Shown here: in pieces, positions 29,845-63,797 of the stretch | Layout: every line of letters begins with the position of its first letter | Position numbering within the stretch: position 1 is the stretch's first letter | Source: Eledone cirrhosa | Lineage: Eukaryota | NCBI GenBank assembly: GCA_964016885.1 | Contig: OZ024747.1 | Span: 5,766,001 to 5,830,000 of the forward strand | Direction of reading: 5' to 3' | DNA: 64,000 nucleotides | The notes under the pieces: generated by a model | Seen by the model: only the letters and a program-made list of their open reading frames with translations | What the model was told of the DNA's origin: nothing | Databases searched by the model: none | Position numbers and translations under genes: made by a program

Positions 29845-30273
29845 TATAATGAAATGACAGGAGGCTGGATTTGTGTAAATCCTTGAAAGGTTTATTATAC
29901 TATGATCATTTCAATGACCGGGTTCCGTATGAATCCGGTGATATCATCAGGCATTCGAAATATAATACGTGAATGTAATAGATAAAATCCATGGGGATTA
30001 CATTCACGTATTATATTTCGAATACCTGATGATATCACCGGATTCATACGGAACCCGGTCATTGAAATGATCATAGTATAATAAACCTTTCAAGGATTTA
30101 CACAAATCCAGCCTCCTGTCATTTCATTATAATATTTAACTCCGTAATAGCACCACCAACTACAAAAACAAAGACGGTTGAACTGCTTTACGTTGAGTAC
30201 TCTCTATATTATTACATTGCGATTGACCATACGGAATAGACCAGCTCTATACAGTGGTGAACCTCAAACCTGA
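29845..30273 (+). mobile_element. PLE-like insertion: 135-bp head-to-head inverted repeat plus longer 3' arm, in (TA)n
   Basis: Arms 29845-29979 and 29997-30131 (1 mismatch seen); hammerhead followed by AATAAA in each arm. Confidence 0.8.
30022..30079 (+). ncRNA. Type I hammerhead ribozyme motif (mirror copy 29897-29954 on minus)
   Basis: ATAC-CTGATGA-stem II (accgg..ccggt)-GAAA-TGATCA-TA|GTAT; palindromic helix III. Confidence 0.8.
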
Positions 30274-31067
30274 ATATATATATATATATATATATATATA
30301 TATATATACAGAACTTATGTTCATCGATTTCAGGGACTTGACTCCCTTTTCCTCCCGTTTGACCTGTGCGAAATTCTTTCCTTACTCACATTTCGTCCAG
30401 GTTTGATGGTCTTTATTCTCTCTCGTCCACGATTTCACAGAACTTATGTTCATCGATTTCAGGGACTTGACTCCTTCTTCCTCACTTTTCGTTGCATTAC
30501 CATCTTTGTTTGTTTACTGTCTCGCTCGTTCCCCTTATTTATGTGCCCCAACGACTTTCTTTAGCCGTTGCTCGCACCAACCGGAGGTATATGGTCTTTA
30601 AAGCGATGAAATACCAATGAAGGTTGGAAGATCACTGATGAAGGACTAAATTTATTCATATGTAACCCATTTGCAACCACGCAGCACGCCATGTTTTCAT
30701 ATTTTCATATATATATATATATATATATATATATATATATATATATATATATATAAGCAATGAGTTATTTAATTTGTTGATTATTCAACAAATTTATTTT
30801 ATAACAGGTTAGAAGCACTCAACACTTACATGTAAACGAAACTTCCTCGTTTTTTCTAATATATACACCCTATCTGTGCATATGCATAGAGTGCTTTTTT
30901 GGAACAGCGACAGTAATTCACTGAATGACCTTCACTATATATATATATATATATATATATATATATATATATATATATATCTAGGGCGGATAAAATTCCC
31001 GAGATCCATGGACGAGTTCTCTCCAGCGGTCTCTGTCCCTTGCAAACTTGACTGTCACCACACATTA

Positions 31068-31106
31068 TGAACCTGAAGATTGCGAAAGCATGAAAGTACT
31101 TGTTCA
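31068..31106 (+). ncRNA. Minimal type I hammerhead ribozyme motif
   Basis: TGAAC-CTGAAGA-T-TGC-GAAA-GCA-T-GAAA-GTAC-TT|GTTCA; 5-bp stem I, palindromic GTAC loop. Confidence 0.85.
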
Positions 31107-31320
31107 ATTAACACTTAACATTTAATATTCTACCATACTATTTCATTCGAATACCATTATAAATGTTAAAGGATTGTAAATAAAACGAGTAAATCAGACA
31201 AAGTTGGAATTCCTTTTATTAATATAATCTTCTATACACAATCATACACACCCGTGTATATTTATCTGTCTATCTATATGTATATATATATATGTATATA
31301 TAAATATGTAGATATATATA

Positions 31321-31436
31321 TATTAAAATAACAGATTAAAGTTTAAGCAAAGAATCGCTACTTTTACCCTTAACGGGATCCCGTTAAGGGTGAAAGCAAC
31401 GATTCTTTGCTTAAACTTTAATCTGTTATTTTAATA
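31321..31436. repeat. 116-bp spacerless palindrome (centre GGATCC, 3 mismatches) in a TA-rich tract
   Basis: Arm-to-arm complementarity; a single-arm copy lies at ~60218-60248. Confidence 0.9.
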
Positions 31437-34368
31437 AATATTTGCTCTACGGTTCTTATATATTTGATATATATTTATCCTGATCGAGCCCTCTTTGGAT
31501 TTTAGTCTTCAAATTTATTATTATTACTATAAAAACACACACACACACACACACGCACACGCACACGCACACGCACATATATATATATATATATATATAT
31601 ATATATATATATATATATATATATATATATATATAAACACACACATTGCGTCAAGATGTTATATTCCTTTGTGTCTTGAAGCCCATCCATTTCCAGATCA
31701 GAACACAGTCGATTCCAGAGAGGGAGAGAGTGTGTGTGAGAGAGTGAGAGTGAGAGTGTCATGAGAAGTGAAAATACATCGAGAGGAATACTTGACCTCG
31801 AAAGGTTGAATAGTAAAGTTAATCTTTACTGGATTTGAACTGAGTGTGTAGAGAGACGTGACTCTGACGTTCTAATGGCTGCCGATTCGGTGCCTTCATA
31901 TATATATATATATATATATATATATATATATACATATACACACACACATATATATATATATGTATATATATATATGTGTGTATATATATGTGTATATATA
32001 TATATGTATATATATATATATATATATGTGTGTATATATATATATGTATATATATGTGTATATATATATATGTATATATATATATGTGTATATATATATA
32101 TGTATATATATGTGTGTGTATATATGTATATATATATACACACACATATATATATATATGTATATATATAAATATATATATGTGTATATATATATATATA
32201 TATATATATATATATATACATATATACACACATATATATATATATATATATATATATATATATATAATATCCTGCCTTGTGACAAATGAAGAAGCCATGT
32301 GTTTCATTTCAAGCCGTCTTGAAATAGTGTATGTGAAAGGGTTATTGCTACTACTGTTGCTGCTACTGTTGCTGCTACTGTTGCTGCTACTGTTGTTTAT
32401 GTTGTTGTTATGATGGCTTCTTTTTTCATCCTCAGCTTCATTTTCTTAACCTACGTTGCCTGTCTTGTTTGACTCCTGTTGAAGTGAAACCGTCTGAAGC
32501 CCCCCTGATTCTATGACACAAAGTTGTTTATTTTGAAATATTTATATATATCTAAAACTTTTCATCATAATTTTATGTTAAAACCTCTCTTAAGTTATGT
32601 TCCAAACACCAAACTAAATAAGTCTAGTTTATCTTCAAAATTATTTCGAAATTAGCAGCTGAAACATAAGTGGGTTAAGATTTGGGAATTATTACTGTTG
32701 TTGTTGTTGTTGCTGTTATCGTTGTCATAGTTATTGTTGTTATTATTGTTATTGTAATCGTTGTCATAGTTATTGTTGTTATTGTTGCTGTTGTTATTGT
32801 TGTTTTGATTGTTATAATTGTTCTTGTAATTGTTCTTGTTGTTGTTGTGATTGTGGTGGTAGTAGTATTAGTAGTAGTAGTGGTAGTGGTAGTAGTAGTG
32901 GTAGTAGTAGTTTTTTGTGTTACTGTTGTCAATATCTTATCTCCAAAAGTAAGAAAGTAAAAAGCCTCCCTGTACAGACCACATCAAGTCTGTGTGTCAT
33001 TTAACGAAAAGTCGCTTCTAATTACATACATACATATATACATACATATGTACACACATACATATGAACATACATACATATGTACACACATACATATGTA
33101 CACACATACATATGAACATACATATATACATATGTACACACATACATATGAACATATATACATACATATGTACACACATACATATGAACATACATATATA
33201 CACACATACATATGAACATACATATATACACACATACGTACATACACACACACACACACACACACACACACACACACACACATACATACATACATACATA
33301 CATACATACATACATACATACATACATACATACATACATGTAAGTACGTACATCATATACAGAATATATATATATATATATATACTGTATATATATATAT
33401 ATATATATATATATACTGTATATATATACTGTATATATATGTTAGTGATGATGATGTATTTATTCTCGTCTGCCAGCTCTCTCTCCAGTTTATGTAGGAA
33501 CTGTATTTTCGTTTTATTTCAGTTTTTTTTATTTTTAAGTCTAAGACATGTTTTGTTTTTATCTTTACATTTACTGTGAATGTAAAACTGGAAAACAAAA
33601 GTATTCTTCTTACAACACACACACATACTCTCAAGCAAATACACACATACACACTCACACAAATACACACACACACACTCTCACACAAATACACACACAC
33701 ACACGCACTCACACACACACTCTCACACTGACACACACACACTCTCACACACTCGCACTCACACAAACACACACGCACTCACACTCACACTCTCACACAA
33801 ACACAAACACACACACACACAAACAGACACACAAACATTCAGACACATACACACTCACACACACACACACACACAGACGCATACACATACAGACACACAC
33901 ACACATGCACAGGCACACACACACACACACACACACACACACAGACAAACAGACACACATACTCAGACATACACACACACACACACACACGGGCGTTAAT
34001 ATATAGACTTTCTCACACACATTCACGGAAACAACACTCCAGCGCCAGAAGAAGACGATGTCGTTGTCGTTGTTGTTGTTGTTGTTGTTGTTGTTGTTGT
34101 TGTTATCAAAACAGTAATTATATATGGGGTTAGCTAGGTTTAGGTGAGAGGTGATTGACCGACATAGTATAATACACGAATACAAAACGGTTTGAGGAGA
34201 AAATTCGGGCTGGAGTAGTCTAAACAATAACTAGGGTTAATAGTAGTAGTAGTAATAGTGATGGCAGTAGTAGTAGTAGTAGTAGTAGGGTTTATATATT
34301 CCAAATAAAGAGGAAATGGCTGTAGGAAGTATTTGCTAATTATTACTTTAATCATGTATTATTACTTT

Positions 34369-34558
34369 GGGCGGTGGATTGGCAGTATTGGTAGAGGGTC
34401 GGACGCCATGCGTTGACGTATAGAGTTACGGCCCTTGCCATTCCAAGTTCAAATCCCCCCGAGGTTAACTTTGCCTTTCATCCTTACGGGGTCGCTAAAA
34501 TAAAGTACCAGTAATGCACTGGGTAATTGCTGGCCTTGTGCCTAACGTAGAAACAATT
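34369..34558 (+). mobile_element. SINE S1 with candidate TSD tattactttaatcatgtatt
   Basis: Full copy; 20-bp duplication near both flanks. Confidence 0.85.
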
Positions 34559-34592
34559 ATTACTTTAATCATGTATTAAATATATTTCTGTA

Positions 34593-62890: not shown

Positions 62891-62962
62891 TACCTTGAAT
62901 AAAAACAACATCACGACATTCCCAAAAGAAATATTTGGAAACATGAAGAAACTGAGAATTCT
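62891..62962 (+). CDS. slit: Slit internal coding exon (LRR; exon 7 equivalent), TLNKNNITTFPKEIFGNMKKLRI(L)
   Basis: Acceptor tttctattttgcag, donor GTGAGT, 72 nt, phase 2/2. Matches Slit [24 protein letters not shown], in the expected order after the two previous exons. Confidence 0.93.
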
Positions 62963-63132
62963 GTGAGTATTTAATTTAACTTACATCTCATTCAAATTCC
63001 GCCATTATGACTTACTGAGAGATCCCCTAACTAGTCGGCGTATCTCTCACAAATTGTAGGTCTTCTAGACACACGGCTGACCTGGGCCTAAAGAACAACG
63101 ATTAACTACTTTGACACTTAGAAACATATATA

Positions 63133-63222
63133 CCGTATTTCCCGGCGTCCTCGAGGACGCATGGTAGATTTTTGAGACTTATTTTAGGAAAAAGGTAGCG
63201 TCTTCGACACCGGGAAATACAG
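63133..63222. mobile_element. Tc1/mariner-pogo-type MITE (90 bp)
   Basis: TIR CCGTATTTCCCGGCGTC / GACACCGGGAAATACAG with TA on both sides. Confidence 0.75.
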
Positions 63223-63238
63223 TACATTATATATATAT

Positions 63239-63347
63239 AAATCCCGCCGAGGTTAACTTTGCCTTTCATCCTTACGGGGTCGATAAAATAAAGTACCAGT
63301 AATGTACTGAGTAATTGATGGCCTTGTGCCAAAAGTAGAAACAATTA
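63239..63347 (+). mobile_element. SINE S1, 5'-truncated
   Basis: Core and tail. Confidence 0.85.
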
Positions 63348-63354
63348 TATATAT

Positions 63355-63797
63355 AGCTTTTAAAGAATTTCCCTTTTCTTTAAATCCATCAACCATGACT
63401 GACCCCCACTGATCTTATAGACACCTGAAATCTAGGCATTGTTAGCTTAAGAGAAACTTAAAAATAAGGAGTGGCATCTCATCCTGAACTTGTTTATAGA
63501 ATTCTTTCTGCCTTTGTTACTCTAAATATAAACGATAGCTTTGAAGAATTAGCTTTTAATGAATTCCCTTTTCTATCAACCAATGACCTATACCCATCCC
63601 ACTCCCTACCCTCTCCTACCACCTGAAGAGACCTATAAATACCATATTTATTTTTTGATACCCAGATTCCTGATGATTTTTAAAGAATGAAACAGTTCTA
63701 GTCCTGTAGAATCTCATCTATATTAAAACTTTTATACTCTGCAATGTATTGAGTACCTTACTTACTATGGTTACCTCCGATTCAACCCGGAATAACG
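63355..63797 (+). mobile_element. PLE-like 3' region/pLTR in (TA)n
   Basis: Partial direct repeat (63355/63550), possible endonuclease C-terminal remnant (KEWHLI..TLNIND), TATAAATA, hammerhead, GTATTGAGTAC. Confidence 0.65.
63664..63714 (+). ncRNA. Type I hammerhead ribozyme motif (GUA site)
   Basis: AGATTC-CTGATGA-TTTTTAAAGAAT-GAAA-CAG-TTCTAGTC-CTG-TA|GAATCT; 6-bp stem I, 4-bp stem III, weak stem II. Confidence 0.78.

What the first reader, a model, noticed from the sequence alone, without database searches (positions are those of the whole stretch)
29845..63797. Many distinct hammerhead-carrying mini-retroelement families nested in (TA)n tracts
Seen: complete or near-complete CUGANGA...GAAA...UH cores with pairable stems at 30022, 31068, 39828, 43643, 49305, 56947 and 63664 (+), and 29897, 39641, 40233, 46053 and 46843 (-). 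Half-cores occur at 8589, 29656, 54542, 56720 and 57764. Stem sequences differ (at least 8 distinct sets), most lie in short islands bounded by (TA)n, and several are followed by AATAAA. Known: Penelope-like elements carry minimal type I hammerheads with palindromic helix III in their pLTRs. Inference: a diverse radiation of PLE-derived or retrozyme-like elements exploits TA microsatellites here and is invisible to ORF annotation.
Basis: partly seen in the sequence, partly recalled or inferred. Interest (0 to 1): 0.82.

Follow-up and report, generated by a model that had tools for sequence, protein, structure and literature searches.

The report
Octopus Penelope-element ends carrying hammerheads
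The hammerhead-ribozyme motifs are real and densely packed in this octopus-type DNA, but they are most likely the already described, truncated 3' ends of Penelope-like jumping genes that insert into TA repeats; the new detail is a small stem-loop shared by their tails that likely marks where copying starts.

Summary
Observation largely confirmed. Of 12 claimed cores, 8 fit a full type I hammerhead descriptor (0 in 40 shuffles). Two more have an intact core but a weak helix II, one is decayed, and one (46843) is more likely a scrambled inverted copy. All 5 half-cores are present. The host looks octopod. The islands show the published Penelope-like element (PLE) footprint: ends abutting (TA)n, variable 5' ends, head-to-head fold-backs, and a 55-162 nt 'tail' on one arm only. 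Several ribozymes have the U.U-closed helix II and 4-bp helix III tabulated for Hydra-clade PLEs; two are classic minimal hammerheads. No tandem retrozyme array and no RT/GIY-YIG fragment was found in the window, so the link to an autonomous partner is indirect. Diverse solo hammerhead families, (TA)n targeting and octopus PLEs are all in print. Three things were not found in my searches. First, a covarying bulged stem-loop just inside the tail of 4 families here and of published Hydra elements from other phyla. Second, a half-hammerhead family about 200-fold more abundant in this species than in a second organism. Third, a density of about one motif per 7 kb. New members of a known kind.

The parts
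29844..30274 (.). Head-to-head fold-back insertion between (TA)n tracts (arms 29845-30131, 95% complementary, centre ~29988); 141-nt tail on the right arm only
30022..30079 (+). Type I hammerhead: intact core, U.U and C.C at the base of helix II, palindromic 8-nt helix III, predicted cut after 30075, AATAAA just after
   Evidence: not taken by the descriptors
29898..29953 (-). Inverted copy of the same hammerhead (left arm)
31068..31106 (+). Type I hammerhead of Hydra-clade form (U.U-closed short helix II with GAAA tetraloop, palindromic helix III)
   Evidence: form compared with File S2 of PMC8557442
39487..40081 (.). Fold-back insertion (arms 39487-40020, 95.5% complementary); 60-nt tail on the right arm only; further 3'-end pieces of this family at 10343-10421, 41104-41142, 56127-56184, 56394-56465
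39828..39870 (+). Minimal hammerhead (extra base before G10.1-C11.1)
39641..39683 (-). Inverted copy of the same minimal hammerhead
40149..40387 (-). Family F2 copy between (TA)n tracts; hammerhead 40233-40268 has two core substitutions (predicted dead)
43614..43832 (+). Island between (TA)n tracts: hammerhead 43639-43703, AATAAA, tail stem-loop 43753-43772
46049..46111 (-). Type I hammerhead with 12-bp helix I; ends 63 nt before a (TA)n tract
46831..46944 (-). Family F1 copy ending at end A; 46894-46944 is more likely a patchwork inverted copy than the 5' half of a core
49305..49351 (+). Type I hammerhead, palindromic 8-nt helix III, AATAAA just after; island 49225-49390
50088..50171 (-). Family F2 piece truncated downstream of the ribozyme
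54459..54773 (+). Half-core (GAAA at 54542, palindromic helix III); second copy 10465-10687 is a fold-back whose inverted arm stops at end A; tail 162 nt
56610..56771 (-). Family F1 copy: fold-back in the helix II region, half-core (GAAA at 56733), 7-bp helix III, tail with stem-loop 56660-56683
56947..56982 (+). Family F2 minimal hammerhead (ACGT palindrome, no loop III); element runs about 56921-57071 and ends in (TG)n, not (TA)n
57631..57816 (.). Fold-back with half-core (GAAA at 57765); 55-nt tail on the left arm with a UUCG-capped stem-loop at 57663-57682 (-); related piece at 43875-43906
63664..63797 (+). Type I hammerhead 63664-63714 (U.U-closed helix II, near-palindromic 16-nt helix III), tail stem-loop 63736-63754, then (TA)n
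29595..29775 (+). Family F1 fold-back: inverted arm from end A plus direct arm to end B (80-nt tail)
8551..8718 (+). Family F1 fold-back with half-core (GAAA at 8599), tail stem-loop 8647-8670
8085..8211 (+). Family F1 copy (short inverted start at end A, direct arm to end B)
343..486 (.). Family F1 fold-back: inverted arm with half-core (-383) joined at a short shared word to a tail-only direct arm

Best explanation
These islands are likely the truncated 3' ends of about ten families of endonuclease-bearing Penelope-like retrotransposons, several likely of the Hydra clade, and each carries all or half of the hammerhead motif that lies near the element's 3' end. Shown in the sequence: the motifs, the fixed 3' ends abutting (TA)n, two ends (A and B) per family 55-162 nt apart, variable 5' ends, and head-to-head fold-backs with the tail on one arm. 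Inferred from PLE biochemistry (PMC11167929): an RT + GIY-YIG protein made by a full-length copy elsewhere nicks TA-rich DNA on both strands and starts reverse transcription inside the RNA at site A or B. Copying mostly stops after 100-350 nt. Two products started on opposite strands are joined head to head, often near the helix II hairpin, which removes the 5' half of the core and leaves 'half-cores'. The ribozyme would serve to process tandem transcripts of the parent element. In these solo or fold-back copies it is likely a silent passenger: helix III is a short palindrome predicted to need a second head-to-tail copy, and the inverted arm would base-pair over it. A bulged stem-loop just 3' of end A is a likely protein-binding or initiation signal (inferred).
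For: Descriptor hits against shuffles. Fold-backs with a one-sided tail in 5 families, matching Fig. 2 and the text of PMC8557442 and PMC3846280. F1: 3 arms stop at end A and 5 at end B, with an 80-nt tail in all 4 copies measured. In contigs of run X1, 235 loose ends show a TA tract directly at end A and 97 show the family's end B. F2: summed contig depth peaks over the ribozyme (0.62-0.68 M) against 0.13-0.18 M downstream and 2 k at 40 nt upstream. Listed variants flank the motif on both sides, with only loop II varying inside it. The U.U-closed helix II and 4-bp helix III match Hydra-clade hammerheads in File S2; almost all Hydra families target (TA)n, and an octopus member is listed. The extra base before G10.1-C11.1 plus palindromic 15.2-16.2 matches the minimal-hammerhead consensus. 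The tail stem-loop is shared with published Hydra consensi. The host is octopod: the 2 hits with an animal name among 9 were Argonauta hians and Octopus sinensis. 31 recently active PLE families are reported in O. vulgaris.
Against: No RT or GIY-YIG remnant in 255 of 263 open pieces scanned against Pfam. A 68-aa frame in the 54542 tail found no protein. 10 short words from the HHR regions of five window families found no match in the published Naiad, Chlamys and Hydra sequences, so no family is tied by sequence to a named PLE. The tails (55-162 nt) are longer than the published 30-40 bp. Three 3' ends fall in (TG)n, (CA)n or (TC)n rather than (TA)n. In one search, 47 variant rows and 1617 loose-end rows were not shown, so core invariance is not proven, and no compensatory change inside a hammerhead helix was seen. 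F1 shows no conserved 5' core half in any of 8 arms or in the loose ends shown. Cleavage and expression are untested.
Confidence: 0.82

Rival explanations
1. Some families, F1 above all, are true non-autonomous mini-elements with a short master copy (about 190 nt, possibly itself a fold-back) that lost the 5' half of the hammerhead and are mobilised in trans by a Hydra-type PLE through the tail stem-loop.
For: F1 depth falls from 0.68 M at the GAAA to about 4 k some 15 nt upstream. Loose ends beyond about 25 nt upstream have low agreement (0.43-0.52). Six listed contigs (of 32 shown) share the fold-back reaching 56767-56772. F1 is about 200-fold deeper in organism A than in organism B, whereas F2 is similar in both. 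There are 6 loci in 64 kb.
Against: The fall in depth is partly due to the reference copy itself folding back there. Mixed subfamilies lower loose-end agreement, and most rows were hidden. Junctions differ among the window copies. A strong-stop hairpin in a full-length parent would give the same picture.
Confidence: 0.35
2. They are non-LTR retrozymes: tandem ribozyme repeats that make circular RNAs and are re-inserted as monomers.
For: Type I topology. Monomeric derivatives of retrozymes are common (bioRxiv 10.64898/2026.07.22.740005). Rare contigs show F2 ribozymes in tandem with a ~56-nt unit (joint 56989 to 56947, depth 28-87).
Against: No head-to-tail same-family pair in the window. Tandem joints are about 1e-4 of F2 depth. 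Fold-backs and one-sided tails are PLE insertion features. No copy was seen to start at a predicted cut site.
Confidence: 0.08
3. The fold-backs are MITE-like DNA transposons (terminal inverted repeats, TA target), and the ribozyme motifs are incidental.
For: Long inverted arms bounded by TA.
Against: The arms are asymmetric (tail on one side). Single-arm copies end at the same two sites, centres vary between copies, and intact hammerheads occur far above chance.
Confidence: 0.03

Closest known systems
Hydra-clade Penelope-like elements, including Hydra-1_Obim of Octopus bimaculoides (Craig et al. 2021, PMC8557442)
   Same: Hammerhead near the 3' end, often with U.U closing helix II and a 4-bp helix III; (TA)n target; 5' truncation, inverted copies and tail as for PLEs generally; bulged stem-loop after the ribozyme in 2 of 6 published consensi (perfect) and 2 more (imperfect).
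   Different: No ORF seen here; no sequence match to the published octopus elements; tails of 55-162 nt rather than 30-40 bp; F1 has a 7-bp helix III with a palindromic loop and no 5' core half.
Minimal hammerheads of metazoan PLEs (Cervera and de la Pena 2014, PMC4209133)
   Same: 56951/40264 and 39832/39679 have the extra base before G10.1-C11.1, a 4-bp helix I and little or no loop III; many heterogeneous families per genome, mostly solo, some as opposite-strand pairs 100-700 bp apart.
   Different: Density here is about one intact-core motif per 7 kb, and contig depth suggests tens of thousands of copies of one family (inferred), against published totals of 2,000-9,000 minimal motifs per genome.
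Poseidon PAc of Anolis (Frangieh et al. 2024, PMC11167929)
   Same: Two 3' ends downstream of the ribozyme define a tail; AT-rich targets; both strands are extended in vitro, which would give head-to-head products.
   Different: PAc starts are a short distance apart inside an ORF and in an AC-rich stem-loop; here the ends are 55-162 nt apart and the shared stem-loop is a different, GAGY-containing motif.
Non-LTR retrozymes (Cervera and de la Pena 2020, PMC7229834; Li et al. 2026 preprint)
   Same: Protein-free sequences with type I hammerheads, linked to PLEs.
   Different: Defined by head-to-tail tandem units with canonical ribozymes and circular RNAs; no array in this window.

Membership tests
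Type I hammerhead motif | Helix I - CUGANGA - helix II - GAAA - helix III - UH - helix I | tested here: met
   8 full matches, 0 in 40 shuffles; 2 more with weak helix II
Type I hammerhead motif | Self-cleavage | not testable with these tools
   no RNA holder listed; needs an in vitro assay
Type I hammerhead motif | Covariation in helices across genomic copies | tested here: inconclusive
   F2: listed variants avoid the core and helices and depth peaks on the motif, but 47 rows hidden and no compensatory pair listed
Rfam hammerhead families | Score at gathering threshold | tested here: not met
   0 matches in the window; the E-value scan was swamped by repeat-driven miRNA matches, 150 of 658 shown
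Minimal hammerhead of metazoan PLEs | Extra base before G10.1-C11.1 and palindromic or absent loop III | tested here: met
   56951, 40264; 39832/39679 with one non-pair in the palindrome (against PMC4209133)
EN+ Penelope-like element | RT + GIY-YIG ORF | tested here: inconclusive
   none in 255 of 263 pieces; islands are too short to reach an ORF and no assembly is held
EN+ Penelope-like element | 5' truncation, inverted 5'-truncated copy, tail on one end | tested here: met
   5 families; end A and end B confirmed in contigs for F1; tails longer than published
EN+ Penelope-like element | Partial tandem (pLTR-ORF-pLTR) | tested here: not met
   no such structure in the window; expected to be rare among truncated copies
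Hydra clade | Protein motifs (RWK, DKT, CxCX5C linker, no CCHH) | not testable with these tools
   no ORF available; features from section 11 of PMC8557442
Hydra clade | Hammerhead near the 3' end and (TA)n target | tested here: met
   ribozyme form matches File S2 for 31073, 30026, 63670
Non-LTR retrozyme | Head-to-tail tandem units each with a hammerhead | tested here: not met
   none in the window; only rare tandem joints in contigs
Non-LTR retrozyme | Circular RNA | not testable with these tools
   no RNA run listed
MITE / Tc1-mariner derivative | Symmetric terminal inverted repeats with fixed ends | tested here: not met
   asymmetric arms, variable centres, single-arm copies

The most novel reading that the evidence does not exclude
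Hydra-type PLE tails carry an undescribed, covarying RNA stem-loop (RCUC - stem - loop - stem - 2-nt bulge - GAGY - RC) conserved from corals and sea cucumbers to octopods, placed just 3' of the first initiation site, and it is the cis signal for mobilisation. In this octopod lineage a ~190-nt protein-free element that kept this stem-loop but lost half of its hammerhead expanded to the order of 1e5 copies. That would make it a SINE-equivalent for PLEs, show that cleavage is dispensable, and make octopod genomes the most hammerhead-dense known.
Probability: 0.33. Interest if true: 0.58.

Novelty: new member of a known kind. Interest (0 to 1): 0.32.

Why it matters
The headline (many hammerhead-bearing PLE ends in TA repeats) is expected from published work and would not surprise a specialist. 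The residual value is practical. The tail stem-loop gives a concrete RNA element to mutate in the existing in vitro PLE assay, on the open question of how these elements choose internal start sites. F1 is a natural experiment on whether the ribozyme is needed. Octopod repeat libraries, which hold many unclassified short families (893 unclassified SINE families among recently active ones in PMC13282606), may hide many such PLE ends.

Tried and rejected
No assembly is held, so no genome-wide search or consensus extension was possible. Rfam E-value scan: only repeat-driven miRNA matches among the 150 of 658 rows shown. The repeat finder was swamped by microsatellites; it was replaced by self-BLAST of a repeat-masked copy (output was cut). 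Pfam on 255 of 263 pieces of 45 codons or more (8 left out: 6 copies of one tandem unit and 2 low-complexity pieces): no PLE domain. Protein searches with 54568-54771 and 6796-6966 among longer proteins: nothing (weak evidence). ARAGORN: 0 tRNAs. No RNA holder listed among 5 runs; this says nothing about expression. Minimum-energy folds give the hammerhead or part of it for only some motifs. The tail stem-loop is the minimum-energy fold in 2 of 5 tails folded and never with a notable z-score. Considered and rejected: 46843 as a full core; F1 as a type II or III permuted hammerhead (no CUGANGA after helix I in the tail, read); AATAAA as necessarily a poly(A) signal (similar A-rich runs follow helix I in published Hydra ribozymes); hits -11154 and -57849 from the relaxed-core descriptors (within shuffle rates). 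Literature searches for hammerheads in octopus or cephalopods returned, of relevant papers, only PMC8557442 or its preprint. The search for a conserved tail stem-loop returned only PMC11167929. A search on the recalled SINE name found nothing. Repbase and Dfam consensi, subscription papers and bioRxiv supplements were not visible and could already hold these families or the stem-loop.

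
Full report
Setting. The window is 35% G+C, and about 26% was masked as simple repeat. No assembly is held. The only long frame, 51978-52898 (-), carries a zf-RVT domain. Of its 9 homologues, the two with an animal name are from Argonauta hians and Octopus sinensis, so the host is likely an octopod. The abundant ~140-200 bp repeat at 953-1090 and elsewhere resembles an octopus SINE; that label is recalled and a search for it found nothing.

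Observation. A strict type I descriptor gave 5 motifs against 0.03-0.05 per shuffle. Allowing one mismatch in helix II gave 8 with intact cores and none in 40 shuffles (descriptor relaxed after seeing the misses). The pair 30026/29950 has an intact core and a perfect palindromic helix III but two non-pairs in helix II. 40264 is a decayed copy of the 56951 family. At 46843 the upstream piece begins with TA followed by the reverse complement of end A. It aligns to the reverse complement of the downstream arm better than all 1000 shuffles (49.4 against a maximum of 48.4; part of this is expected for helices I and II anyway). Its 'core' is three ordered blocks of that reverse complement. I therefore read it as a patchwork inverted copy, while a damaged natural 5' half is not excluded. 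The 12 claimed sites are 10 insertions. All five half-cores are present, and in four of them a fold-back centre lies 11-24 nt upstream of the GAAA. Rfam has no match at gathering level.

Anatomy. Self-BLAST and alignment show the same build in five families: an inverted arm that stops at an inner end A, and a direct arm that runs on to an outer end B, both abutting (TA)n. The tails are 80 nt (F1, 4 of 4 copies measured), 60 nt (39832 family), 141 nt (30026), 162 nt (54542) and 55 nt (57764). Single-arm copies stop at the same ends, while 5' ends differ from copy to copy: F2 begins about 120 nt upstream of the core, about 30 nt upstream, or just downstream of the cut. This is the structure described for PLEs: 5' truncation, an adjacent inverted 5'-truncated copy, a tail on one end, and bias for microsatellites. 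Sources are PMC8557442 (passages, section 11 and supplement look-ups) and PMC3846280 (passages). PMC11167929 (parts 1-2 of 4) shows that the tail lies between two internal reverse-transcription starts, that both target strands are extended, and that ribozyme cleavage is dispensable in vitro. PMC4209133 (parts 1-2 of 4) already reports thousands of heterogeneous minimal hammerheads per animal genome, mostly solo, some as opposite-strand pairs, and inactive as monomers.

Genome-wide view from contigs. Laying 4 of the 5 listed runs (2 samples, 2 organisms, contigs only) on 56543-57071 placed about 21,000-22,000 contigs per run in organism A and 5,484 in organism B. In X1, summed depth is 2.1-2.7 M over the F1 tail, 1.1 M over helix III, 0.68 M at the GAAA, about 4 k beyond 56747, about 2 in the unique middle, 0.62-0.68 M over the F2 ribozyme and 0.13-0.18 M downstream of it. 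The tool warns that depth is not copy number. Single listed contigs have depths of 2-20, so the order of 1e5 (F1) and several 1e4 (F2) copies is my inference. It agrees with 6 and 3 loci per 64 kb if the genome is near the 2.8 Gb of O. vulgaris (PMC13282606, parts 1-2 of 3). Organism B has F2 at similar depth (0.31-0.52 M) but F1 at 3-8 k. Loose ends put a TA tract directly at F1 end A (235 contigs in X1). Inside the F2 motif only loop II is listed as variable, while eight or more flanking positions vary; 47 rows were hidden, so this is supportive and not proof. Tandem F2 joints exist but are rare (depth 17-87).

Clade. File S2 of PMC8557442 lists Hydra-clade ribozymes with a U after the first core box and a U before GAAA, and a 4-bp helix III. 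That is the form of 31073, 30026 and 63670. Nearly all Hydra families target (TA)n, and Hydra-1_Obim is from an octopus. 56951 and 39832 are of the minimal form. No window word tested matched the published sequences, and no PLE protein remnant was found, so clade assignment rests on RNA form, not on protein.

A shared tail motif. The pattern TTGAGYRC occurs 12 times (about 5 expected from base composition). Nine of these lie 22-73 nt before a 3' TA tract, and a tenth is in an F1 copy with a short tract. Seven fold as a bulged stem-loop, six with four Watson-Crick outer pairs, in four unrelated families with different inner stems (shuffle mean 0.06, but the descriptor was drawn from these sequences). 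The independent support is external. Of the 6 newly described Hydra consensi, Hydra-2_Amil (coral) and Hydra-2_Ajap (sea cucumber) have the same architecture with the outer A-U pair changed to G-C and different inner stems. Hydra-1_Crog and Hydra-1_Amil have imperfect versions, and Hydra-1_Obim and Hydra-1_Ajap end before the position (read by eye). In F1 the four variable positions listed within the motif fall in the bulge or loop, and none in 16 paired positions (chance 0.007 if positions were random; hidden rows apply). It sits 3-9 nt past end A in F1 and the 57764 family. Against it: it is the minimum-energy fold in only 2 of 5 tails; it is absent from the F2, 39832 and 54542 tails and broken in 30026. 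One search found no description of it.

Mechanism. Shown: motifs, ends, tails, fold-backs, abundance pattern. Inferred: target-primed reverse transcription at (TA)n by an RT + GIY-YIG protein in trans, started at A or B; early termination; joining of two opposite-strand products at short shared words (seen at 343-486 and 8551-8597); loss of the 5' core half when joining happens in helix II. Predicted: solo copies cleave poorly and fold-backs not at all.

Verdict. Real and non-random, but a known kind: PLE 3' ends in TA repeats, not retrozymes. An earlier scan note on another genome (e1-7882047) reached the same reading; it is unchecked and not independent support. Interest 0.32. The tail stem-loop, the F1 expansion and the density are the parts worth following.

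Noticed in passing
window 8741-9365: Partly inverted pair of copies (70% over 474 nt), beginning right after a TA tract, with A-box- and B-box-like words by eye (recalled motifs); ARAGORN finds no tRNA.
   Followed up: partly
window 727-830 and 31324-31433: Further perfect or near-perfect fold-backs beside (TA)n without a recognisable hammerhead (104 nt, 100%; 110 nt, 94.5%, with a one-sided extension and a second short copy at 60217-60247); likely ends of other PLE families.
   Followed up: no
window 30756-30935 (-): Island between TA tracts with a wobble-rich version of the tail stem-loop (30822) but no ribozyme; likely a tail-only copy of another family.
   Followed up: partly
window 15681-15770 and 26159-26556: The abundant SINE-like repeat also occurs as inverted pairs (88% and 86% complementary).
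   Followed up: no
window 51975-53180 (-), 34928-35224 (+), 22839-23165 (-): 3' remnants of ordinary LINEs: a zf-RVT-bearing frame, and two frames that look like RTE and CRE C-termini (recalled, no Pfam match). The 34928 element's 3' end matches 30983-31040, directly upstream of the 31073 ribozyme.
   Followed up: partly
window 6640-6975 and 53390-53790: Two copies of a ~330-nt repeat with a weak C2H2 match (E 6e-5 and 1e-3, below cut-off); no protein relative found.
   Followed up: partly
window 18346-19687, 24297-24994, 36663-37536: Minisatellite arrays; no hammerhead match in them from the descriptors.
   Followed up: no
runs X1, X3, X4 at window 56946-56989: Rare contigs carry the F2 ribozyme twice in tandem with only 13-31 spacer letters, a very short dimer that could fold as an active pair.
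   Followed up: no
window 29844-30274 and 39487-40081: Near-perfect hairpins of about 290 and 540 nt; if transcribed they would be long double-stranded RNA, a likely substrate for editing or small-RNA pathways (inference).
   Followed up: no
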